Below, in pieces: positions 37,772 through 44,259 of a stretch of DNA of 55,287 bases (its first letter is position 1; every line of letters starts with the position of its first letter). The stretch spans positions 1 through 55,287 of the forward strand of contig JBKJOZ010000377.1 of the NCBI GenBank assembly GCA_046595315.1. Direction: 5' to 3'. The stretch comes from Limisphaerales bacterium. Its GTDB lineage: Bacteria; Verrucomicrobiota; Verrucomicrobiia; Limisphaerales; CANJXF01. The position numbers and the translations under genes were made by a program. The notes under the pieces are model-generated. The model did not search any database. It saw nothing but the letters and a program-made list of their open reading frames with translations, and was not told the DNA's origin.

Positions 37772-38413
37772 TTGAAAAAAAACAGACCACAATTTATCGC
37801 CATCGTCGGCGGCAGCGGCTCAGGAAAAACCTGGCTTGCCGACCGGCTCGGAAAATCATTTGGTAAAAAAGTCGCGCGCATTTCCCTCGATGATTTTTAT
37901 CGGGACCGCTCCCATCTCTCCGTCAAACAACGGAACCAAATCAACTTCGATCATCCCCGGGCAATTGATTGGAAAAATGTGGAGCGTGTGCTCAATGATT
38001 TTGCCGCAGGCCGCGCCGTGCGCACACCAAAATACAATTTTACGACTCACGCGCGCGAAGAAAAATCAATTTCAATGAAACCCAAGCCGCTCATCATCAT
38101 GGACGGACTTTGGCTCTTGCGCCGCCCGGTTCTGAGACGTCTTTTTTCTTGCCGCATCTTCGTCGATTGCCCGGGTTCAATATGTCTGCGCCGACGTCTG
38201 GAGCGAGACCTCGCTGAACGCGGCCGTGACGCTTCCGCTGTGCGAAAACAATTTCTCAAACATGTCCTGCCCATGCAGGAACGGTTCGTTGCCTCACAAC
38301 TGCGCTGGGCCAATGTCGTGATCAAACAACCGAGCGAGAATCAAATCAGCCAACTGACCGAACAATTAAAAACAATTTTGAAAACAAATAATTATGAGCG
38401 AACAGCAAATTAA
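37772..38413 (+). CDS. udk: Uridine kinase
   Basis: 213 aa with a TTG start. It has the P-loop IAIVGGSGSGKTWLA and is collinear with E. coli Udk (FYRDRSHLSVKQRNQINFDHPRAIDW, IIMDGLWLL, IFVDCPGSICLRRRLERDLAERGR). Confidence 0.85.
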   Translation: MKKNRPQFIAIVGGSGSGKTWLADRLGKSFGKKVARISLDDFYRDRSHLSVKQRNQINFDHPRAIDWKNVERVLNDFAAGRAVRTPKYNFTTHAREEKSISMKPKPLIIMDGLWLLRRPVLRRLFSCRIFVDCPGSICLRRRLERDLAERGRDASAVRKQFLKHVLPMQERFVASQLRWANVVIKQPSENQISQLTEQLKTILKTNNYERTAN

Positions 38414-39122
38414 CGCATTGCTCGTGAAACGTTTTCTTCAAACGCAAACTGTTTGGGGCCGGCAGCGGCTTCGTTTGGCCGTACACTGGAAACAATTTTC
38501 CTGGCGCGTCGTGGTTTCGTCCGCCCTCTTCCTCAAGCGGACTTTTGATGTTGTCGCGAGTTTTGTTTTCCTGGTGGTTTTCTCGCCGCTATTTCTGCTC
38601 ATCTCGGCGCTGATAAAACTGGAAGATGGCGGCCCGGTTTTCTTTGGGCAAACCCGGATTGGGAAATTTGGTTCCAAGTTCAAAATGTGGAAGTTTCGTT
38701 CCATGTGCATTGATGCCGAGGCTCGCATGAAGGATTTGCTTGCCAAAAACCAGCACAAGGATGGAGTAACCTTCAAAATTAAAGACGATCCGCGCGTTAC
38801 CAAAGTGGGTAAATGGCTTCGCAAATTTTCCCTCGATGAATTACCCCAATTTTTCAACGTCTTCATTGGCAATATGTCGCTGGTTGGCCCACGTCCGCCG
38901 GTGCCGCGCGAGGTCGCGCTCTACACCTTATCGGATCGACGTCGCCTCGCGGCACTTCCTGGAATTACCTGCTTCTGGCAAATCGGCGGTCGCAGCGAAA
39001 TTGATTTTTCTGGGCAAGTGCAGCTCGATGTTCGTTACATCGAGAGCCAAAGTTTTTGGTTGGATATTAAAATTTTAGCCAAAACCGTTCCAGCGGTTTT
39101 GTTCAGCAAAGGGGCATATTAA
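38394..39122 (+). CDS. Small monotopic phosphoglycosyl transferase (PglC/WcaJ-C-terminal type bacterial sugar transferase)
   Basis: 242 aa with a re-entrant helix carrying the Ser-Pro break (FVFLVVFSPLFLLISAL). It has GPVFFGQTRIGKFGSKFKMWKFRSM, the catalytic DE in SLDELPQFFNVFIGNMSLVGPRP, and LPGITCFWQIGGR. It overlaps udk by 20 nt. Confidence 0.9.
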   Translation: MSEQQINALLVKRFLQTQTVWGRQRLRLAVHWKQFSWRVVVSSALFLKRTFDVVASFVFLVVFSPLFLLISALIKLEDGGPVFFGQTRIGKFGSKFKMWKFRSMCIDAEARMKDLLAKNQHKDGVTFKIKDDPRVTKVGKWLRKFSLDELPQFFNVFIGNMSLVGPRPPVPREVALYTLSDRRRLAALPGITCFWQIGGRSEIDFSGQVQLDVRYIESQSFWLDIKILAKTVPAVLFSKGAY

Positions 39123-40417
39123 TGAAAGCTGTCCTTATTTGTCCTGCGGAGCGTGCGGAAGTTAGCGCACTCGAAGAATTTACGCCTTTGGTAAATCTTT
39201 CCATTCTGGGCAATCCCTTCATCCATCACTGGCTTGAATATCTCGCGGTCTGCGGGATTAAAAATGTGACCGTTCTCGCGGCAGATCGTCCCGAGCAAAT
39301 TCGCGCCGAAGTGGGCGACGGTTCACGCTGGGGAGTGCAAGTAGAAATTATTCCCGAATCTCACGAGCTCACTCTTGAAGAAGCACGCCAAAAATTGGGC
39401 GGCTCTGACGACATTATTTTGATCGACCACTTGCCGGGGTTGCCCACCGAAAAACTTTTTGCGAGTTATGTCGCTTTTTATTCTACCGTTCACAGGTGGA
39501 TCGAGAAAAATTCTCACCTAATGCAAATCGGTTTAAAAGAAATTCGTCCTGGCATCTGGGCTGGACTACACAGTCAAATTTCTCCGCGTGCGACACTGAC
39601 TGCGCCTTGCTGGATCGGTGAAAATGTTTTGATCAACGCAGACGCCGAGGTCGGCCCAATGACGATTTTAGAACGTGGCGTGGTTGTCGAAAGCGGCGCA
39701 ACAATCACCCATGCGTGGATCGGCAAAGAAACTTTTGTCGGCAACTTTACTCAGGTGAATAACTCCCTCGCCTTCGGAAACACGTTGGTAAATTTCATGA
39801 ACGCCTCCGTCGTGATAATCACCGATCCATTTTTGCTGTGCGCTTTGCAAGACCGGGAAATTTCTGTGAGTGCCGGAAATTTGTTTGGACGATGCGTAGC
39901 CCTCATCGTTCTGGCCTTAACCTCCCCGTTCGCCCTCGTGACAATGCTGAAAGCCAGATTCTTGGGTCACCGCACTTTTCGTCAGCGCCGAGCTATCGCA
40001 TCGCATTCGACCCCCCAACAATATCCAACGTTTATTTATTACGAATTTTCTTCGGCAAACGGATGGTGGAAACGCTGGCCGCAGTTATGGAGCATCGTGT
40101 GTGGCGAATTCACTTGGGTCGGCAACCGTCCGCTCACAACTTTTCAGGCCGGACAATTAGCCAATGAATTTGAGCGGCTCTGGCTCGCGGCGCCGATTGG
40201 ATTAATTTCCAAGGGTGATTCAGAAGGTTGCTCTGATTTGTCTTCCGACGAAGCCCATGCTCACGCCAGCTTCTATGCGGCACAAGCCAACTGGCGTTTA
40301 GATCTGATGATTCTTTTTCGCACCGTCAAACACTTGGCCGGGCGGAAAAAACCGGCCTCCGTGCAAAACGATTCAGCCACACTGAAAACGCGCCGTTTCA
40401 CCTTGCTGGCGCGTTAG
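39122..40417 (+). CDS. Fusion protein: degenerate NTP-transferase-like domain + left-handed beta-helix (hexapeptide) + degenerate sugar-transferase (pseudo-PGT) domain
   Basis: 431 aa; the ATG overlaps the PGT stop (TAATG). The N-terminus keeps the nucleotidyl-transferase layout (NLSILGNPFIHHWLEYLAVCGIKNVTVL..GDGSRWGV) but lacks the GxGxR loop. Hexapeptide repeats span about aa 150-235. The C-terminus has PGT-like blocks (LALTSPFALV, WPQLWSIVCGEFTWVGNRPL, AAPIGLIS, NWRLDLMILFRTV) with KR in place of the catalytic DE. Confidence 0.6.
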   Translation: MKAVLICPAERAEVSALEEFTPLVNLSILGNPFIHHWLEYLAVCGIKNVTVLAADRPEQIRAEVGDGSRWGVQVEIIPESHELTLEEARQKLGGSDDIILIDHLPGLPTEKLFASYVAFYSTVHRWIEKNSHLMQIGLKEIRPGIWAGLHSQISPRATLTAPCWIGENVLINADAEVGPMTILERGVVVESGATITHAWIGKETFVGNFTQVNNSLAFGNTLVNFMNASVVIITDPFLLCALQDREISVSAGNLFGRCVALIVLALTSPFALVTMLKARFLGHRTFRQRRAIASHSTPQQYPTFIYYEFSSANGWWKRWPQLWSIVCGEFTWVGNRPLTTFQAGQLANEFERLWLAAPIGLISKGDSEGCSDLSSDEAHAHASFYAAQANWRLDLMILFRTVKHLAGRKKPASVQNDSATLKTRRFTLLAR

Positions 40418-40607: not shown

Positions 40608-40910
40608 ATGAAAGTTCAAATTTGCGGAGACACATTAAGCATCACCGGTATGAAAGAATTAGGCGCGTCCAACGCTAATTCGTTTCGCGACCACGTTCGT
40701 GCAGCGCTGACCGAAGCAAACAAAATTATCGAGATCGATCTTTCCCAAACCATGTTCGTGGACAGCTGCGGACTGGGGGCGTTGATTTCGCTTCATAAAG
40801 TTGCCTGCACGCGAAATGGGCAAGTGCGCCTGCTCAATCCCACTCCGCCCGTCCAGCAGATTCTGGAACTCACCCGGATGCATCGCATTTTTGAAATCGT
40901 AAAACGCTGA
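40608..40910 (+). CDS. STAS-domain anti-sigma-factor-antagonist-like protein (SpoIIAA/RsbV/SypA-like)
   Basis: 100 aa. The phospho-acceptor context is conserved (MFVDS53CGLGALISL), followed by LNPTPPVQQILELTRMHRIFEI. Confidence 0.85.
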   Translation: MKVQICGDTLSITGMKELGASNANSFRDHVRAALTEANKIIEIDLSQTMFVDSCGLGALISLHKVACTRNGQVRLLNPTPPVQQILELTRMHRIFEIVKR

Positions 40911-40914
40911 GGAC

Positions 40915-42702
40915 ATGCCGCCCTCCCTCCCAATGCCATCGACCGCACGCCTCGGGTTTTCCATGGCGTGCGAATTGGAAGAAGTCCGCCCGATTGCCAA
41001 AGCCACGCGCGAATTTTTAGCCGCCAAAGGATTATCAGAAAATGAACTCATGGCGTGCGAATTGGTTTTGGTTGAGGCGTGCAACAACGCGGTGCTCTAC
41101 GTGATTCCATCGAGGCAACTCGAGCCAATCGGCGTTGAAATCTTCTGCGACGATTCGAAAATTGAGATCCAGATTCACGACCACACTGCTGGTTTTGAAC
41201 TGCCCGAACAGGTTGATCTGACCGACCTAGAAAGCGAAAGCGGGCGCGGTCTTTTCATCATCCAATCTTTGATGGATGACGTCAGTTACGCTGGGGGATT
41301 TGGGGAAAACACTCTGACGCTTCGCAAAATCCGCCCGCCGCAAAACAAAGAAATCATCTCAGAGAAAACGATTGAAAAACTGAAATTAAAACTGGCCGAG
41401 AACGAACAGATCATTGATGACATGACCGAGGAAATCAGTTCCTGCTACGAAAGTTTGTCTGCCATCTTTAGGAGCGGCGCTGAACTCGGGAAGTCTCACA
41501 ATCTCCAAACTTTCTCGCGATCATTGTGCGACGATTTGCTGAAAATTAATTCTGCTGACTGGTTTTTGCTCCGCATCGCACCGAAGGACGATACTGCGTT
41601 ATCCGTTTTCGTTTCGTCAGATTCCTCGGTTCAACTGCCCAGCATTTCTCCGGTTAATTCGGACGTTCATTCATTTGCGGAGATTAAGGCCGCCACCAGC
41701 CAAAAAGATGTTTGGTTCAATTCGAGAAATCCGCTCCACCCAAATGATCCGCTTCACGCCATGCCAGCGGCGCGCGTTGGATTGGTTCACCCGTTCTATT
41801 TTTCCGAAACTCTCATTGGAACTTTAGCCATTGGCAAAACACGAGCAGAACATCCTTTTACGTCAGCACATCTCAACGTGATCCATACGGTTTCCGATTT
41901 TTTAGCCATGCAGATCGTCAATGCTCGCCTTTACGAGGAACGACTCAATCACGGCTTGGTGACCCGTGAATTGGAAATTGCACGCGAAATTCAACGCGCT
42001 TTGCTCCCGAAAAAATTGCCGCGATTGCCCGGCTTTGCTCTCGCCGGTTTTTGCGAAAGTGCAAGACATGTGGGTGGAGATTTTTACGACGCCGTTCAAA
42101 TCGATGAACATTCTGCGCTGCTCGTGATCGCTGATGTGATGGGGAAAGGTGTCCCGGCGGCAATGTTCGCCGCGATTTTGCGCAGCATTTTGCGCGGTTC
42201 ACCAGAACTGGTCCGCCAACCCGCCGCGCTGCTGACCCGCGTGAACGGATTACTTCACGAAGAACTTTCCGATGTCGAAATGTTTATCACGGCACAACTG
42301 GCGTTCATCGACGTGCGTAAGCGTGAACTGATCGTCGCCAATGCCGGACATTGCCCTGCCCTGCTCTTTTGCGAAAACAATCCGGTGCCCAAACAAATTT
42401 CTCCGGAGGGAATGCCGCTCGGTATTTTGCGAAACGCTCTTTTCACCGAGGTGAAGGAACCATTGTTCCACCAATGCCGGGTTGTCTTCTACACCGATGG
42501 AGTTACGGAATCGCGCAACGCCAATGATCAATTTTTTGGGCATCAACGTCTCGTCGATTGGATGAGCGCGACGGCCGGAAAATTTCTAACGGCGGAACAA
42601 TTGAAAGAGTCTCTCGCGGCGGAGTTGAACCTTTTTCGGGATCGTAGCGCCCCGAGTGACGACCAGACATTTTTAATTTTGGCAGAGAATTTTCTAAACT
42701 GA
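40915..42702 (+). CDS. Fused RsbW/SpoIIAB-type serine kinase - GAF-like - SpoIIE/PP2C serine phosphatase
   Basis: 595 aa. The kinase half has ELVLVEACNNAVLY, HDHTAGFE and ESGRGLFIIQSLMD. The GAF-like middle ends LIGTLAIGK...FLAMQIVNARLYEE. The PP2C half has REIQRALLP, GGDFYD, IADVMGKGVPAAMF, FYTDGVTES and DDQTFLIL. Confidence 0.85.
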   Translation: MPPSLPMPSTARLGFSMACELEEVRPIAKATREFLAAKGLSENELMACELVLVEACNNAVLYVIPSRQLEPIGVEIFCDDSKIEIQIHDHTAGFELPEQVDLTDLESESGRGLFIIQSLMDDVSYAGGFGENTLTLRKIRPPQNKEIISEKTIEKLKLKLAENEQIIDDMTEEISSCYESLSAIFRSGAELGKSHNLQTFSRSLCDDLLKINSADWFLLRIAPKDDTALSVFVSSDSSVQLPSISPVNSDVHSFAEIKAATSQKDVWFNSRNPLHPNDPLHAMPAARVGLVHPFYFSETLIGTLAIGKTRAEHPFTSAHLNVIHTVSDFLAMQIVNARLYEERLNHGLVTRELEIAREIQRALLPKKLPRLPGFALAGFCESARHVGGDFYDAVQIDEHSALLVIADVMGKGVPAAMFAAILRSILRGSPELVRQPAALLTRVNGLLHEELSDVEMFITAQLAFIDVRKRELIVANAGHCPALLFCENNPVPKQISPEGMPLGILRNALFTEVKEPLFHQCRVVFYTDGVTESRNANDQFFGHQRLVDWMSATAGKFLTAEQLKESLAAELNLFRDRSAPSDDQTFLILAENFLN

Positions 42703-42703
42703 T

Positions 42704-43060
42704 ATGTCCAGAAAAATATTAATCATCGATGACAAGCCGTTTATGGTGCGACTGATTCAGCACCACTTGGAGCGCGCGGGTTATGAATTGATCAAGGCGC
42801 GAAATCCACAGGAAGCGGCCGACGCCATCGCCCTGCAATCTCCTGAACTCGTCTTGTTGGATGAATCAGGTGCCAATCAAATCACGCTCGGCGATTTCAA
42901 AGCAAAAGAACCGGCTCATCGCTTGCCGGTGATTCGCATGACCGACATGCCACAGACTCTCGATGAAAACCACCCCGGCAACGAAGTCGTTTTAACCAGA
43001 CCGTTCAGCCCGACTCACTTGGTCGCGGAAGTAAAACGGTTAGTGCGCGAAACCAAATAA
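42704..43060 (+). CDS. Stand-alone receiver (REC) domain protein, atypical
   Basis: 118 aa with the acidic pocket ILIIDDK, phospho-acceptor LVLLDES and Thr in VIRMTD. The conserved Lys position reads Arg (LTRPFSP) and the post-Asp 'MP..dG' turn is absent. Confidence 0.75.
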   Translation: MSRKILIIDDKPFMVRLIQHHLERAGYELIKARNPQEAADAIALQSPELVLLDESGANQITLGDFKAKEPAHRLPVIRMTDMPQTLDENHPGNEVVLTRPFSPTHLVAEVKRLVRETK

Positions 43061-43065
43061 ATAAA

Positions 43066-44259
43066 ATGAAATCTGTTCTCCCTATTTTTATCATGATCGA
43101 CGCCTGCGGTTGGGAAATCGTGAAGCGCGATCCTTTTCTCAACTCGATTGCGCCGGAACGGAAAAAGCTCGGCTCCGTTTTCGGTTACAGCTCGACTTGC
43201 GTGCCCTCCATTCTCTCCGGGCGCTGGCCCGTCGAACATCGCAATTGGTGCTACTTTGTTTACGACCCAAAAAATTCTCCGTTCAAATTTCTTAAGCCGT
43301 TACGCTGGTTGCCCTCGGCCCTCACCAGTCGTCGTATTTTCCGGCGCTGGCTCACGAAGCTCGTTCGCCGCCACCTTGGCTTCGAAGGCTATTTTGATCT
43401 CTACAACATTCCGTTCAAACACATCACGCTTTACGACTTCAGTGAAAAGAAAAGCCCACTCAAGCCCAAGGGAATGAATCGTGGCTCAAATATTTTTGAT
43501 TTTCTGGGCGAGAACAAAATTCCTTATTTCGTGAGCAACCCCGACAAAACGGAGCCGGAAAATTTTGAAAATCTCCTCACCACAATCAAAGGCGAGAAAA
43601 TTGATTTCGCATTTTCTTACTGGCCCGGACTCGACGGACTGCTGCACAGCGTCGGCAATCAATCGCCCGAGGTTCCAAAACGCCTGCGTCATTATGAACA
43701 GTGGATCGAAAAAGTGATGGCGACGGCGCGCGAACATTACGACGAAGTGAAGCTCTACGTTTTCAGCGATCATGGGATGGCCAATTGTGATGAGTTAATC
43801 GATTTGAAAGCCAAGATCGATGCGCTTGATGTGAAAATGGAAAAGGATTACGCCGTGGTTTACGACTCCACCATGGCACGCTTTTGGTTCTTCAACAAAA
43901 ACGCTCGCGAGAAAATTTCCCGTTGCCTGCAAGGTGTTCCAGAAGGCCGGATCCTGCCTGATTCCGAACTGGAAGAAATGCGCGCTCTTTTTCCAGATCG
44001 CTATTTTGGGGAATTAATTTTCCTCGTAAAAGAGGGCGTTTTGATTGTGCCAAGTCACATGGGCGAACGCCCCATTCGCGCCATGCATGGCTATCATCCT
44101 TCGGACAAACACAGTTACGCCGCGCTGTTCACGAACCAGACAGAAATTCCCGACGACATCAATGCCATCCCCGATATTTATAAATTGATGACGCAGGAGG
44201 CTGAACAGGCGCGCATCGAAAACAAAAAACCATCGGCGGTTCATGCCGCCGCAATTTAA
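43066..44259 (+). CDS. Alkaline-phosphatase-superfamily type I phosphodiesterase/nucleotide pyrophosphatase-like enzyme (cytoplasmic)
   Basis: 397 aa with no signal peptide or TM. It has the metal/nucleophile blocks FIMIDACGWE and GYSSTCVPSILSGRWPVEH, plus GLDGLLHSVG, VFSDHGM and AMHGYH. Confidence 0.7.
   Translation: MKSVLPIFIMIDACGWEIVKRDPFLNSIAPERKKLGSVFGYSSTCVPSILSGRWPVEHRNWCYFVYDPKNSPFKFLKPLRWLPSALTSRRIFRRWLTKLVRRHLGFEGYFDLYNIPFKHITLYDFSEKKSPLKPKGMNRGSNIFDFLGENKIPYFVSNPDKTEPENFENLLTTIKGEKIDFAFSYWPGLDGLLHSVGNQSPEVPKRLRHYEQWIEKVMATAREHYDEVKLYVFSDHGMANCDELIDLKAKIDALDVKMEKDYAVVYDSTMARFWFFNKNAREKISRCLQGVPEGRILPDSELEEMRALFPDRYFGELIFLVKEGVLIVPSHMGERPIRAMHGYHPSDKHSYAALFTNQTEIPDDINAIPDIYKLMTQEAEQARIENKKPSAVHAAAI

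What the first reader, a model, noticed from the sequence alone, without database searches (positions are those of the whole stretch)
38394..40417. Active small phosphoglycosyl transferase followed by a fused pseudo-NTP-transferase / beta-helix / pseudo-PGT
Seen in sequence:
- The 242-aa PGT has all hallmark blocks, including the catalytic Asp-Glu (SLDELPQFF).
- The next gene starts within its stop codon (TAATG). It encodes a nucleotidyl-transferase-like N-terminus without the GxGxR loop, then hexapeptide repeats.
- Its C-terminal domain keeps the PGT skeleton: a re-entrant helix with the Ser-Pro break (LALTSPFALV), WPQLWSIVCGEFTWVGNRPL, AAPIGLIS and NWRLDLMILFRTV.
- In that domain Lys-Arg (40070-40075) stands where the catalytic DE should be.

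Established knowledge: the DE dyad is required for catalysis in PglC/WbaP-type PGTs.

Inference: this is a membrane-docked pseudoenzyme built from two degenerate sugar-activation domains. It may scaffold or regulate the adjacent initiating transferase or sense NDP-sugar levels.
Basis: partly seen in the sequence, partly recalled or inferred. Interest (0 to 1): 0.6.

Follow-up and report, generated by a model that had tools for sequence, protein, structure and literature searches.

The report
Dead sugar-enzyme partner of a glycan starter
Next to the enzyme that starts a surface-sugar polymer lies a conserved membrane protein built from catalytically dead copies of two sugar-handling enzymes, and gene order plus natural gene fusions suggest it links that starter enzyme to a phosphorylation switch.

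Summary
The ORF at 38394-39122 encodes a complete small phosphoglycosyl transferase (PGT) with the DE dyad. The ORF at 39122-40417 (TAATG overlap) encodes a truncated nucleotidyltransferase-like domain without GxGxR, then a beta-helix, a membrane helix and a PGT-fold domain without DE.

The C-terminal domain models confidently (pLDDT 87.6). In the PDB it matches only PglC and WbaP.

This is a large conserved family, not decay. There are 832 50%-identity clusters at E<=1e-30, and none of 240 homologues has DE or GxGxR.

In about 65 Verrucomicrobiota genomes the order is GT4, uridine-kinase-like, small PGT, fusion, STAS, (kinase/PP2C, receiver), phosphodiesterase. Among 41 relatives the orthologous small PGT occurs in exactly the 14 genomes that carry the fusion, always adjacent.

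Longer relatives in Chlamydiota-, Acidobacteriota- and Desulfobacterales-labelled records mostly keep a small PGT alongside; every locus examined has STAS-domain genes. Four members carry a fused C-terminal STAS domain.

Best reading, inferred only: a pseudoenzyme adaptor coupling a SypA/SypE-like STAS phospho-switch to the initiating PGT. I found no description of a dead-PGT family in the literature I could search. Binding and regulation are untested.

The parts
38394..39122 (+). Small monotopic phosphoglycosyl transferase (242 aa), predicted active. It has the re-entrant helix motif KR...SP, KFRSM, DPRVT, the D148-E149 dyad, GPRP and PGITxxWQ. About 45 aa precede the helix and carry a conserved WGRxRL...WK motif.
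   Evidence: PF02397 1-178/179, E 1.1e-67. WbaP catalytic domain E 2e-51. DE is kept in 64 of 66 orthologues; the other two are one N-masked sequence and one regex mismatch. Conservation profile.
39122..40417 (+). Fusion pseudoenzyme (431 aa): NTP-transferase-like domain, left-handed beta-helix, membrane helix and dead PGT domain. Its start overlaps the PGT stop codon (TAATG).
39122..39526 (+). Truncated nucleotidyltransferase-like domain (aa 1-135). Only the N-terminal nucleotide-binding lobe is present and the sugar-binding lobe is absent.
   Evidence: AF2 pLDDT above 90. Foldseek superposes it on MurU over 97 columns, rmsd 2.4 A, 31% identity. Pfam PF00483 covers only profile 26-83 of 245.
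39140..39154 (+). C7-P8-A-E-R11, the family signature that replaces the G-x-G-x-R phosphate-binding loop.
   Evidence: C7 in 65/67, P8 in 67/67, R11 in 58/67. GxGxR occurs in 0 of 240 homologues. MurU alignment.
39527..39850 (+). Left-handed beta-helix (hexapeptide repeats, aa 136-243) of the non-catalytic GMPPB_C / eIF2B-epsilon type. No conserved His.
   Evidence: PF00132 E 1.1e-7 and PF25084 2.4e-4. There is no His among the invariant or 95%-conserved columns. The model shows beta-strands at pLDDT about 90.
39875..39961 (+). Hydrophobic helix (aa 252-280) with conserved R257, A260, T267 and P269, flanked by basic residues. Predicted re-entrant membrane helix homologous to the PGT helix.
   Evidence: hhalign aligns it to the partner PGT's helix with Pro on Pro. 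Conservation. Helix at aa 254-280 in the model. C-terminal STAS fusions require both ends to be cytoplasmic.
39977..40336 (+). Dead PGT globular domain (beta-hairpin aa 286-309 and core aa 313-405). It is the best-conserved segment of the protein.
   Evidence: AF2 on the 66-sequence alignment gives pLDDT 87.6, pTM 0.80. The only Foldseek PDB hits below E=1 are PglC (8e37, 8g1n; TM 0.61-0.66) and WbaP (8t53; TM 0.66). Mean column conservation is 0.676, against 0.60 for the other domains.
40070..40075 (+). K317-R318, immediately before the invariant W319-P320-Q321. This is where the Asp-Glu dyad would precede LPQ in an active PGT.
   Evidence: The pairs here are RR, KR, RF, QR and similar, with no acidic residue, in 119 of 120 homologues and 66 of 67 genome loci; in the remaining sequence of each set the motif pattern did not match. 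hhalign instead places a 5-residue deletion that removes DE.
40121..40132 (+). G334-N335-R336-P337, the counterpart of the PGT G-P-R-P ('PRP') nucleotide-binding motif. It is kept as an invariant N-R-P.
   Evidence: G334 67/67, N335 67/67, R336 66/67, P337 67/67. The motif's role is described in PMC10186338.
36435..37634 (+). GT4 glycosyltransferase, the first gene of the conserved unit.
   Evidence: PF00534 E 3.6e-36. Synteny in most of about 65 loci.
37772..38413 (+). Uridine-kinase/PRK-family P-loop protein. It overlaps the PGT start by 20 nt.
   Evidence: PF00485 E 3.9e-34. Conserved position in most loci.
40608..40910 (+). Single-domain STAS protein (contains FVDSCGLG). The gene immediately follows the fusion in nearly all relatives and is fused to the fusion's C-terminus in some.
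   Evidence: PF01740 E 6.5e-15. Synteny. STAS-fused members P0129, P0143, P0167 and P0181; locus L090.
40915..42702 (+). RsbW-type kinase (HATPase_c_2), GAF and PP2C (SpoIIE) fusion, the presumed kinase/phosphatase for the STAS protein.
   Evidence: PF07228 E 1.8e-41 and PF13581 2e-20. Conserved in most loci and, in rearranged forms, in other phyla.
42704..43060 (+). Single-domain response-regulator receiver.
   Evidence: PF00072 E 7.3e-8. Synteny.
43066..44259 (+). AP-superfamily type I phosphodiesterase / nucleotide pyrophosphatase-like protein. It has the highest phmmer bit scores of the operon's genes between loci.
   Evidence: PF01663 E 5.6e-19. phmmer bit scores of about 530-800 across loci with a complete gene.

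Best explanation
Shown by computation: the 431-aa protein has lost the catalytic signatures of both enzyme families from which it is built, yet it is conserved and keeps their folds.

Inferred: it acts as a membrane-anchored, non-catalytic partner of the small PGT encoded immediately upstream. The steps below are all inference.
1. [quoted passage not shown] This gives a small PGT the kind of accessory module that large PGTs such as WbaP carry in cis.
2. Its cytoplasmic NTP-transferase-like/beta-helix part is the docking surface for the neighbouring STAS protein.
3. The phosphorylation state of that STAS protein is set by the adjacent RsbW-type kinase/PP2C phosphatase and receiver.
4. [quoted passage not shown] This would be like SypA/SypE in Vibrio fischeri or the STAS-PGT fusion All4160 in Anabaena.

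The direction of control (activation or inhibition) cannot be told from sequence.
For: Loss of catalysis.
- No DE dyad and no GxGxR loop in any of 240 homologues or 67 genome loci.
- The Lys of PKP is lost.
- The sugar-binding lobe is absent: PF00483 covers only profile 26-83 of 245, and the domain is 135 aa.
- The beta-helix has no conserved His.

Retained structure and constraint.
- The C-terminal domain has pLDDT 87.6 and matches only PglC and WbaP in the PDB.
- 56 columns are at least 95% conserved in 67 sequences, and the dead PGT core is the most conserved segment.
- The family has 832 50%-identity clusters at E<=1e-30.

Coupling to the PGT.
- The PGT lies directly upstream in every locus that holds upstream DNA.
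- Among 41 relatives, the orthologous small PGT is present in exactly the 14 genomes that have the fusion and absent from the other 27, which have only a large PGT.
- The pairing recurs in loci from records labelled Chlamydiota, Acidobacteriota and Desulfobacterales.

Coupling to the STAS switch.
- A STAS gene follows the fusion in nearly all Verrucomicrobiota loci.
- STAS, kinase, PP2C and receiver domains accompany the pair in other phyla.
- Four divergent members have STAS fused to their C-terminus.
- In L090 the fused STAS replaces the separate gene at the same operon position.

Precedents.
- WbaP is a dimer with a nucleotide-sensing accessory domain (PMC10942596).
- EpsW activates the PGT EpsZ by direct interaction, proposed from modelling to promote its dimer (PMC12802240).
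- The STAS-PGT fusion All4160 is controlled by a partner-switching kinase and phosphatase (bioRxiv 10.64898/2026.04.08.717354).
- Foldseek matches to the GMPPA/GMPPB and VTC1-KONJAC (KJC2) complex entries and to eIF2B show the same NTP-transferase/LbH architecture. From my own knowledge, GMPPA and KONJAC are the catalytically inactive regulatory subunits of those complexes.
Against: - No physical interaction has been shown or modelled.
- Gene fusion and synteny indicate functional linkage, not the mechanism.
- Short forms with only the NTP-like and beta-helix part, lacking the membrane helix and dead PGT domain, sit in the same operon in a closed genome (L096) and in G029 (L091). Pairing of dead PGT with live PGT therefore cannot be essential everywhere.
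- One long-form locus (L093) shows no small PGT next to the fusion, although it lies near a contig end.
- Several loci lack the kinase/phosphatase in the operon (L016, L018, L020, L096).
- The conserved C-P-x-E-R, Y-x-E and N-R-P motifs could form a new active or ligand-binding site that sequence analysis cannot recognise.
Confidence: 0.55

Rival explanations
1. Metabolon scaffold or nucleotide sensor without a direct STAS link. The dead domains bind a uridine nucleotide, a UDP-sugar or Und-P, or they recruit soluble enzymes. Candidates are an active GMPPB-like pyrophosphorylase (through beta-helix oligomerisation), the uridine kinase-like protein or the phosphodiesterase. The protein would then tune or channel substrate to the PGT. 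The STAS genes would act elsewhere, for example on a glycosyltransferase.
For: - The PGT nucleotide-binding PRP motif survives as an invariant N-R-P.
- WbaP's accessory domain binds UMP/UDP/UTP and UMP inhibits the enzyme (PMC10942596).
- Foldseek matches the GMPPA/GMPPB and VTC1-KONJAC complex entries. From my own knowledge, those pseudoenzymes act by binding their active paralogues.
- Active NTP_transferase genes sit next to the pair in L088 and in the locus.
- The operon also encodes a uridine-kinase-like protein and a nucleotide pyrophosphatase-like protein.
- WecG-STAS fusions show that STAS can attach to other enzymes of the pathway.
Against: - The NTP-transferase-like domain has lost the phosphate loop, the Lys and the sugar lobe.
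- The window operon contains no active pyrophosphorylase.
- STAS is fused directly to this protein in four members, and it sits immediately downstream in nearly all loci.
Confidence: 0.25
2. An active enzyme with a relocated or new active site. The PGT-fold domain, the C-P-x-E-R site or both catalyse a different reaction. Examples would be transfer to or from a polyprenyl-linked intermediate, or a modification step. 'Pseudoenzyme' would then be a misnomer.
For: The substituted positions are themselves almost invariant: C7, P8, R11, Y306, E308, W319, N335 and R336. That pattern suits a functional site better than a mere scaffold. Reviews note that some apparent pseudoenzymes have migrated catalytic residues (PMC10211241 abstract).
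Against: - All characterised monotopic PGTs need the Asp-Glu dyad and Mg2+ (PMC10519829). Here basic or hydrophobic residues occupy or flank that site.
- No conserved His, or Asp/Glu pair, lies near the former active-site helix.
- Short forms dispense with the whole PGT-fold domain while the operon is otherwise unchanged.
Confidence: 0.1
3. A decaying duplicate with no function of its own: a relic of a bifunctional pyrophosphorylase-PGT kept only by operon inertia.
For: It evolves faster than its PGT partner (44-48% against 63% mean identity to the window copy). Parts of it are lost in some lineages.
Against: - Intact ORFs of conserved length occur in about 68 species-level genomes and in hundreds of metagenomic clusters across several phyla.
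- 56 columns are at least 95% conserved.
- No stop codons lie inside any match.
- It is gained and lost together with the PGT.
Confidence: 0.03

Closest known systems
Bifunctional monotopic PGTs (Bi-PGTs) of the PglC/WbaP superfamily
   Same: A monotopic PGT-fold domain with a re-entrant helix is fused to another sugar-pathway domain (acetyltransferase- or glycosyltransferase-type fusions are described in PMC11626204 and PMC10942596). The architecture is N-terminal accessory domain, membrane helix, then PGT fold.
   Different: Both fused modules lack their catalytic signatures (no DE dyad, no GxGxR). The active PGT is a separate, adjacent gene. I found no description of a dead-PGT family in the papers I could search. 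The 2021 network census (O'Toole et al.) was not available to me.
Large PGT WbaP (S. enterica): four-helix bundle and nucleotide-sensing DUF fused to the catalytic domain; functional homodimer
   Same: A PGT catalytic core works together with a cytoplasmic, non-catalytic, nucleotide-binding-type accessory domain that also mediates oligomerisation and regulation (PMC10942596).
   Different: Here the accessory module would be supplied in trans by a second polypeptide that has a dead PGT fold. The accessory fold is NTP-transferase/LbH, not the PF13727 Rossmann-like DUF.
GMPPA-GMPPB, KONJAC-VTC1 and eIF2B gamma/epsilon (NTP-transferase + LbH pseudoenzymes)
   Same: Best structural matches of the N-terminal two-thirds (Foldseek E 1e-6 to 5e-10). 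That these are catalytically inactive NTP-transferase/LbH regulators of an active partner is from my own knowledge.
   Different: - Those proteins are soluble and full length, and they pair with an active paralogue of the same fold.
- This one is truncated to the first lobe and is membrane-anchored.
- Its likely client is a PGT rather than a pyrophosphorylase.
Anabaena All4160 / Synechocystis XssP (STAS domain fused to an active PGT)
   Same: A STAS domain sits on the initiating PGT machinery, with control by a partner-switching-type kinase and PP2C phosphatase (bioRxiv 10.64898/2026.04.08.717354).
   Different: There STAS is fused directly to the active PGT. Here STAS is free, or fused to the pseudoenzyme, and the PGT is a separate small protein.
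SypA/SypE of the Vibrio fischeri syp polysaccharide locus
   Same: A STAS protein plus an RsbW-kinase/PP2C-phosphatase regulator lies inside a polysaccharide locus. [quoted passage not shown]
   Different: No NTP-transferase/LbH/PGT pseudoenzyme is known to me in the syp locus (from memory, not tested here). SypE carries its receiver domain internally.
EpsW-EpsZ of Myxococcus xanthus
   Same: A small signalling protein activates an initiating PGT after translation by direct interaction, proposed from modelling to promote its dimer (PMC12802240). A single-domain receiver is also encoded in this operon.
   Different: EpsZ is a large PGT, and no pseudoenzyme or STAS protein is involved.

Membership tests
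Monotopic phosphoglycosyl transferase superfamily (PF02397; PglC/WbaP), as an enzyme | Re-entrant membrane helix with a helix-breaking Pro and flanking basic residues | tested here: met
   P269 66/67, T267 57/67 and R257 64/67; K277 and R279 follow the helix. hhalign aligns the helix Pro on Pro with the partner PGT. The re-entrant topology itself is predicted, not measured.
Monotopic phosphoglycosyl transferase superfamily (PF02397; PglC/WbaP), as an enzyme | PGT globular fold | tested here: met
   AF2 pLDDT 87.6. Foldseek finds PglC at TM 0.61-0.66 and WbaP at TM 0.66, with no other PDB hit below E=1.
Monotopic phosphoglycosyl transferase superfamily (PF02397; PglC/WbaP), as an enzyme | Asp-Glu catalytic dyad preceding (L)PQ (PMC10519829) | tested here: not met
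   K317-R318 in the window. No DE and no acidic residue in the 119 Verrucomicrobiota-type homologues and 66 genome loci where the motif pattern matched. No DE in the 42 of 120 long forms where it matched. hhalign deletes the dyad.
Monotopic phosphoglycosyl transferase superfamily (PF02397; PglC/WbaP), as an enzyme | P-R-P nucleotide-binding motif (PMC10186338) | tested here: inconclusive
   It is present as an invariant N335-R336-P337. Whether it still binds a nucleotide is unknown.
Monotopic phosphoglycosyl transferase superfamily (PF02397; PglC/WbaP), as an enzyme | Phosphosugar transfer from UDP-sugar to polyprenyl phosphate | not testable with these tools
   Needs a UMP-release assay.
Sugar-1-phosphate nucleotidylyltransferases (PF00483; RmlA/MurU/GMPPB) | G-x-G-x-R phosphate-binding loop and the Lys of the PKP motif | tested here: not met
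   The loop reads CPAERAE, and TPLVN stands in place of TPKPL in the MurU alignment. GxGxR occurs in 0 of 240 homologues.
Sugar-1-phosphate nucleotidylyltransferases (PF00483; RmlA/MurU/GMPPB) | Complete two-lobed fold with a sugar-binding lobe | tested here: not met
   Only about 135 aa precede the beta-helix. PF00483 matches profile 26-83 of 245. Foldseek aligns only 97 columns to MurU. Long-form relatives keep about 200 aa.
LbH (hexapeptide) acyl/acetyltransferases | Hexapeptide beta-helix | tested here: met
   PF00132 E 1.1e-7. The model shows beta-strands across aa 138-241.
LbH (hexapeptide) acyl/acetyltransferases | Conserved catalytic His / acyl-CoA site | tested here: not met
   No His is among the invariant or at least 95% conserved columns. 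The best LbH models are the non-catalytic GMPPB_C and eIF2B-epsilon types.
NTP-transferase/LbH pseudoenzyme regulators (GMPPA, KONJAC, eIF2B gamma/epsilon) | NTP-transferase-like plus LbH architecture with lost catalytic residues | tested here: met
   Foldseek top hits are 8yre, 7d72 and eIF2B entries. The catalytic motifs are absent.
NTP-transferase/LbH pseudoenzyme regulators (GMPPA, KONJAC, eIF2B gamma/epsilon) | Forms a complex with, and regulates, an active partner enzyme | not testable with these tools
   Only synteny and co-occurrence with the PGT are available.
STAS partner-switching control of polysaccharide initiation (SypA/SypE-like; All4160-like) | STAS protein plus RsbW-type kinase and PP2C phosphatase encoded with the pathway | tested here: met
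   Pfam hits in the window. Conserved in about 60 loci and in other phyla.
STAS partner-switching control of polysaccharide initiation (SypA/SypE-like; All4160-like) | Physical link between STAS and the initiating-enzyme machinery | tested here: inconclusive
   Natural fusions of this pseudoenzyme to STAS exist (P0129, P0143, P0167, P0181). This supports association, but binding and its dependence on phosphorylation are untested.

The most novel reading that the evidence does not exclude
This family is the missing output adaptor of SypA-type STAS switches. A doubly dead enzyme pairs through its dead PGT domain with a small active PGT and converts STAS phosphorylation state into on/off control of the first lipid-linked step of glycan synthesis. 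That would be a pseudo-PGT/PGT heteromer, a type of regulation not described for any PGT and present in at least four phyla.
Probability: 0.35. Interest if true: 0.8.

Novelty: new variant of a known kind. Interest (0 to 1): 0.68.

Why it matters
The initiating PGT commits scarce undecaprenyl phosphate and nucleotide sugars to one glycan pathway. How bacteria gate that step after translation is only now being worked out, with WbaP nucleotide sensing, EpsW-EpsZ and All4160.

A widespread, doubly dead enzyme always paired with a small PGT and a STAS phospho-switch offers three things.
1. A concrete, testable candidate for what STAS proteins in polysaccharide loci act on. The abstract of PMC4517449 says SypA acts by an as-yet unknown mechanism.
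2. The first candidate pseudo-PGT that I could find.
3. A correction to annotation. Members are currently labelled 'sugar transferase', 'NDP-sugar synthase' or 'LpxD', which would mislead pathway reconstruction in Verrucomicrobiota, Chlamydiota and others.

Tried and rejected
1. Whole-protein AF2 with 30 sequences left aa 334-390 below pLDDT 50. Refolding aa 236-431 alone with 66 sequences solved this.
2. I considered the beta-helix as an active acetyltransferase, as in known Bi-PGTs. I rejected it because there is no conserved His and the best models are non-catalytic LbH types.
3. I first read G029's short form as a STAS fusion. I rejected that because the two ORFs overlap in different frames and are better read as separate genes.
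4. A phylum-wide search with the divergent STAS-fused member P0181 found only 3 of 301 genomes. The sample was dominated by small-genome families and the first-look filter scored only 5 candidates per genome. It shows patchiness but is not a reliable prevalence figure.
5. The 2021 PGT network census (O'Toole et al.) could not be read by DOI or PMC id. I therefore cannot exclude that this architecture was listed there.
6. Searches for 'monoPGT or pseudoenzyme' and for 'phosphoglycosyl transferase / catalytically inactive / partner-switching' found no paper on a dead PGT.
7. The promoter/terminator scan gave nothing above chance.
8. A look-up of earlier scan findings by sequence returned nothing.

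Full report
**What is there**

The window carries two overlapping + strand ORFs exactly as described: 38394..39122 (242 aa) and 39122..40417 (431 aa). The junction reads TAATG.

The first ORF is a complete small monotopic phosphoglycosyl transferase (PGT). It matches PF02397 over the whole profile (E 1.1e-67). It matches the catalytic domain of Salmonella WbaP at E 2e-51, with KFRSM, DPRVT, SLDELPQ, GPRP and PGITxxWQ all present.

The second ORF has four parts.
- **aa 1-135.** These align with the first lobe of sugar-1-phosphate nucleotidylyltransferases (NCBIfam E 2.5e-10; MurU E 8.5e-6). The G-x-G-x-R loop reads C-P-A-E-R, and the Lys of PKP is Leu.
- **aa 136-243.** These are hexapeptide repeats of the non-catalytic GMPPB_C / eIF2B-epsilon type.
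- **aa 252-280.** This is a hydrophobic helix with a central T-S-P.
- **aa 286-405.** This region matches the second half of PF02397 (profile 92-177, E 1.5e-9).

**Are the catalytic residues really gone?**

An ungapped reading puts K317-R318 where D-E precedes LPQ. A profile-profile alignment of the C-terminal domain family against the partner-PGT family (hhalign, probability 96%, E 2e-9) gives a different register. It aligns the membrane helices Pro on Pro, aligns WKR with the LRK of LRKFSLDELPQ, and deletes five residues including DE. In both readings there is no acidic dyad.

This holds across the family.
- Of 120 close homologues, 119 have a basic or hydrophobic pair (RR, KR, RF and similar) before W-P-Q and none has an acidic residue; in the remaining one the motif pattern did not match. 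The same holds in 66 of 67 genome loci.
- No long-form relative in which the motif could be located has DE.
- GxGxR occurs in 0 of 240 homologues.
- The partner PGTs keep DE in 64 of 66 cases. The other two are one N-masked sequence and one mismatch of my search pattern.
- No His is conserved anywhere in the protein, which argues against an acetyltransferase role for the beta-helix.

**Is it folded and under selection?**

Whole-protein AlphaFold2 gave pLDDT above 90 for the N-domain and the beta-helix, but a poor C-terminus. Refolding aa 236-431 with 66 sequences from genome loci gave pLDDT 87.6 and pTM 0.80. Foldseek against the PDB then returned only PglC (TM 0.61-0.66, E 2.5e-8) and WbaP (TM 0.66) below E=1. 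The domain therefore has the full PGT fold.

The N-terminal two-thirds resemble tlr0611, VTC1-KONJAC, GMPPA/GMPPB and eIF2B gamma/epsilon.

In 67 non-identical orthologues, 56 columns are at least 95% conserved. The dead PGT core is the best-conserved segment (0.676, against about 0.60 for the other domains). The replacement motifs are themselves nearly invariant: C7-P8, R11, Y306, E308, W-P-Q and G-N-R-P. G-N-R-P corresponds to the PGT 'PRP' nucleotide-binding motif (PMC10186338).

**How widespread is it?**

- A word-indexed search found 511 homologues. The top 120 all share this architecture, and the records that carry an organism label are mostly labelled Verrucomicrobiota.
- A profile search of 1.84 billion representatives found 832 clusters at E<=1e-30.
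- Short forms (about 290 aa) have the NTP-like and beta-helix part only.
- Long forms (about 460-520 aa) have a fuller NTP-transferase-like domain. They occur in records labelled Chlamydiae, Acidobacteriota, Deltaproteobacteria and Desulfobacterales.
- One long form (P0254) keeps D-R and matches the full PF02397 profile (E 4e-26). It looks like an intermediate stage.
- Members are annotated as 'sugar transferase', 'NDP-sugar synthase' or even an LpxD-type acyltransferase.

**Genomic context**

A scan of species-representative genomes returned 76 loci, about 68 of them full-length and nearly all labelled Verrucomicrobiota. I called ORFs and scored them against the window's proteins. The order GT4, uridine-kinase-like, small PGT, fusion, STAS, (RsbW-kinase/GAF/PP2C), (receiver), AP-type phosphodiesterase is kept almost everywhere. 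The PGT lies directly upstream of the fusion in every locus that holds upstream DNA.

Among the 41 nearest species genomes the match is exact.
- The fusion is present in 14.
- A full-length orthologue of this small PGT (E<=1e-78) is present in exactly those 14, always adjacent.
- The other 27 have only a 460-510-aa large PGT.

In other phyla the pairing and the signalling genes recur in rearranged forms.
- **Two long-form loci on 1.3- and 2.3-Mb contigs, close homologues of Chlamydiae-labelled members (L087, L094).** REC-PP2C-kinase-STAS fusion, small PGT, fusion, WecG-STAS fusion.
- **Desulfobacterales (L089).** REC-PP2C, kinase, STAS, small PGT, fusion.
- **Acidobacteriota (L088).** A GAF-PP2C-kinase protein and a receiver on the opposite strand, then NTP-transferase, small PGT, PGT-WecG fusion and the pseudoenzyme fusion.
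- **Unnamed record.** Receiver, GAF-PP2C-kinase, STAS, NTP-transferase/LbH, small PGT, PGT-WecG fusion and the pseudoenzyme fusion, all on one strand.

One locus (L093) shows WecG-STAS followed by the fusion, without a visible small PGT.

**Link to the STAS switch**

Four divergent members (P0129, P0143, P0167, P0181) carry a C-terminal STAS domain (PF01740, E 4e-8 to 4e-14). P0181 lies on a 91-kb scaffold of assembly GCA_000378105.1. There the order is PGT, fusion-STAS as a single 511-aa ORF, kinase/PP2C, receiver, phosphodiesterase. No separate STAS gene is present.

This gene fusion argues that the pseudoenzyme and the STAS protein work together. A C-terminal STAS that cytoplasmic kinases must reach also implies that both ends of the protein are cytoplasmic, which fits a re-entrant helix.

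An earlier report of this scan had independently read the downstream genes as a SypA/SypE-like switch with no known output.

**Mechanism proposed**

Loss of catalysis, retention of fold, conservation, co-occurrence and STAS fusion are shown by computation. Everything in the following three points is inferred.
1. The protein is a non-catalytic partner that sits beside the small PGT in the membrane.
2. It supplies in trans the kind of accessory or regulatory module that large PGTs carry in cis. WbaP, for example, is a dimer whose accessory domain senses uridine nucleotides (PMC10942596).
3. It presents a docking surface for the STAS protein, so that STAS phosphorylation gates initiation.

Precedents make direct control of PGTs plausible.
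- Phospho-EpsW activates EpsZ by direct interaction, proposed from modelling to promote its dimer (PMC12802240).
- Anabaena All4160 is a STAS-PGT fusion. It is switched by a partner-switching-type kinase and the phosphatase HenR (bioRxiv 10.64898/2026.04.08.717354).

I put this reading at about 0.55.

**Caveats and rivals**

- Short forms without the membrane helix and dead PGT domain occupy the same operon position in a closed genome (L096) and in G029 (L091). The NTP-like/beta-helix part may therefore be the core. Pairing of dead and live PGT domains cannot be universal.
- Some loci lack the kinase/phosphatase.
- A scaffold or nucleotide-sensor role without STAS (0.25) remains open.
- A new catalytic activity at the conserved replacement motifs (0.10) remains open.
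- Simple decay is contradicted by the conservation (0.03).

**Novelty**

Each ingredient is known: bifunctional PGTs, NTP-transferase/LbH pseudoenzyme regulators, and STAS control of polysaccharide synthesis. I found no description of a dead PGT-fold protein, of a doubly dead fusion, or of its strict pairing with a small PGT and a STAS switch.

The 2021 PGT network census could not be read, so prior listing of the architecture cannot be excluded. I class this as a new variant of a known kind, with interest 0.68.

Noticed in passing
window 38394-38530 (PGT aa 1-45): The small PGT has an extension of about 45 aa before its re-entrant helix, with a conserved WGRxRL...WK...W motif. PglC has only about 6 residues there. 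It could be a docking element for the pseudoenzyme or for STAS.
   Followed up: partly
window 43066-44259: The AP-superfamily phosphodiesterase / nucleotide pyrophosphatase-like gene has the highest phmmer bit scores of the operon's genes (about 530-800 between loci with a complete gene). It stays next to STAS even where the kinase/phosphatase is missing. Its substrate is unknown.
   Followed up: partly
L096 6740-7627 (closed genome G277); L091 5999-6895 (G029): Short forms of the family (about 295 aa, NTP-like and beta-helix only, no membrane helix or dead PGT domain) occupy the same operon slot between the PGT and STAS.
   Followed up: partly
L087 7422-8957; L094 7499-9052; L093 4434-5993; L090 3017-4105 (minus strand): WecG/TagA-family glycosyltransferases with Pfam STAS hits (unmarked in L090, weak or faint in the others) lie next to the PGT/pseudoenzyme pair in other lineages. 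STAS domains may therefore be attached to more than one early enzyme of the pathway.
   Followed up: no
L088 4604-6004 and the locus: PGT-WecG fusions (about 470 aa) lie between the small PGT and the pseudoenzyme, so these loci hold three PGT-fold domains in a row. I did not check whether the middle one keeps DE.
   Followed up: no
P0254 (515 aa): This long-form member matches the full PF02397 profile (E 4e-26) and NTP_transferase (E 9e-21) but reads LDRLPELW, with D-R in place of D-E. It may be an evolutionary intermediate.
   Followed up: partly
L052-L061, L066, L075 (loci labelled Verrucomicrobia subdivision 3, Verrucomicrobiota or Limisphaerales): Two STAS-matching ORFs follow the fusion in several loci. 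Some of the pairs overlap each other or the neighbouring kinase/phosphatase ORF in my longest-ORF calls.
   Followed up: no
G000:C320:1708-2307 (own genome, another contig): The genome also encodes a conventional large PGT (472-aa ORF), as do nearly all relatives. The small PGT plus pseudoenzyme is therefore an accessory second initiation system.
   Followed up: partly
(source annotations): Public annotations call family members 'sugar transferase', 'NDP-sugar synthase', 'NDP-sugar pyrophosphorylase family protein' or 'UDP-3-O-(3-hydroxymyristoyl)glucosamine N-acyltransferase'. All of these imply activities that the sequences do not support.
   Followed up: yes
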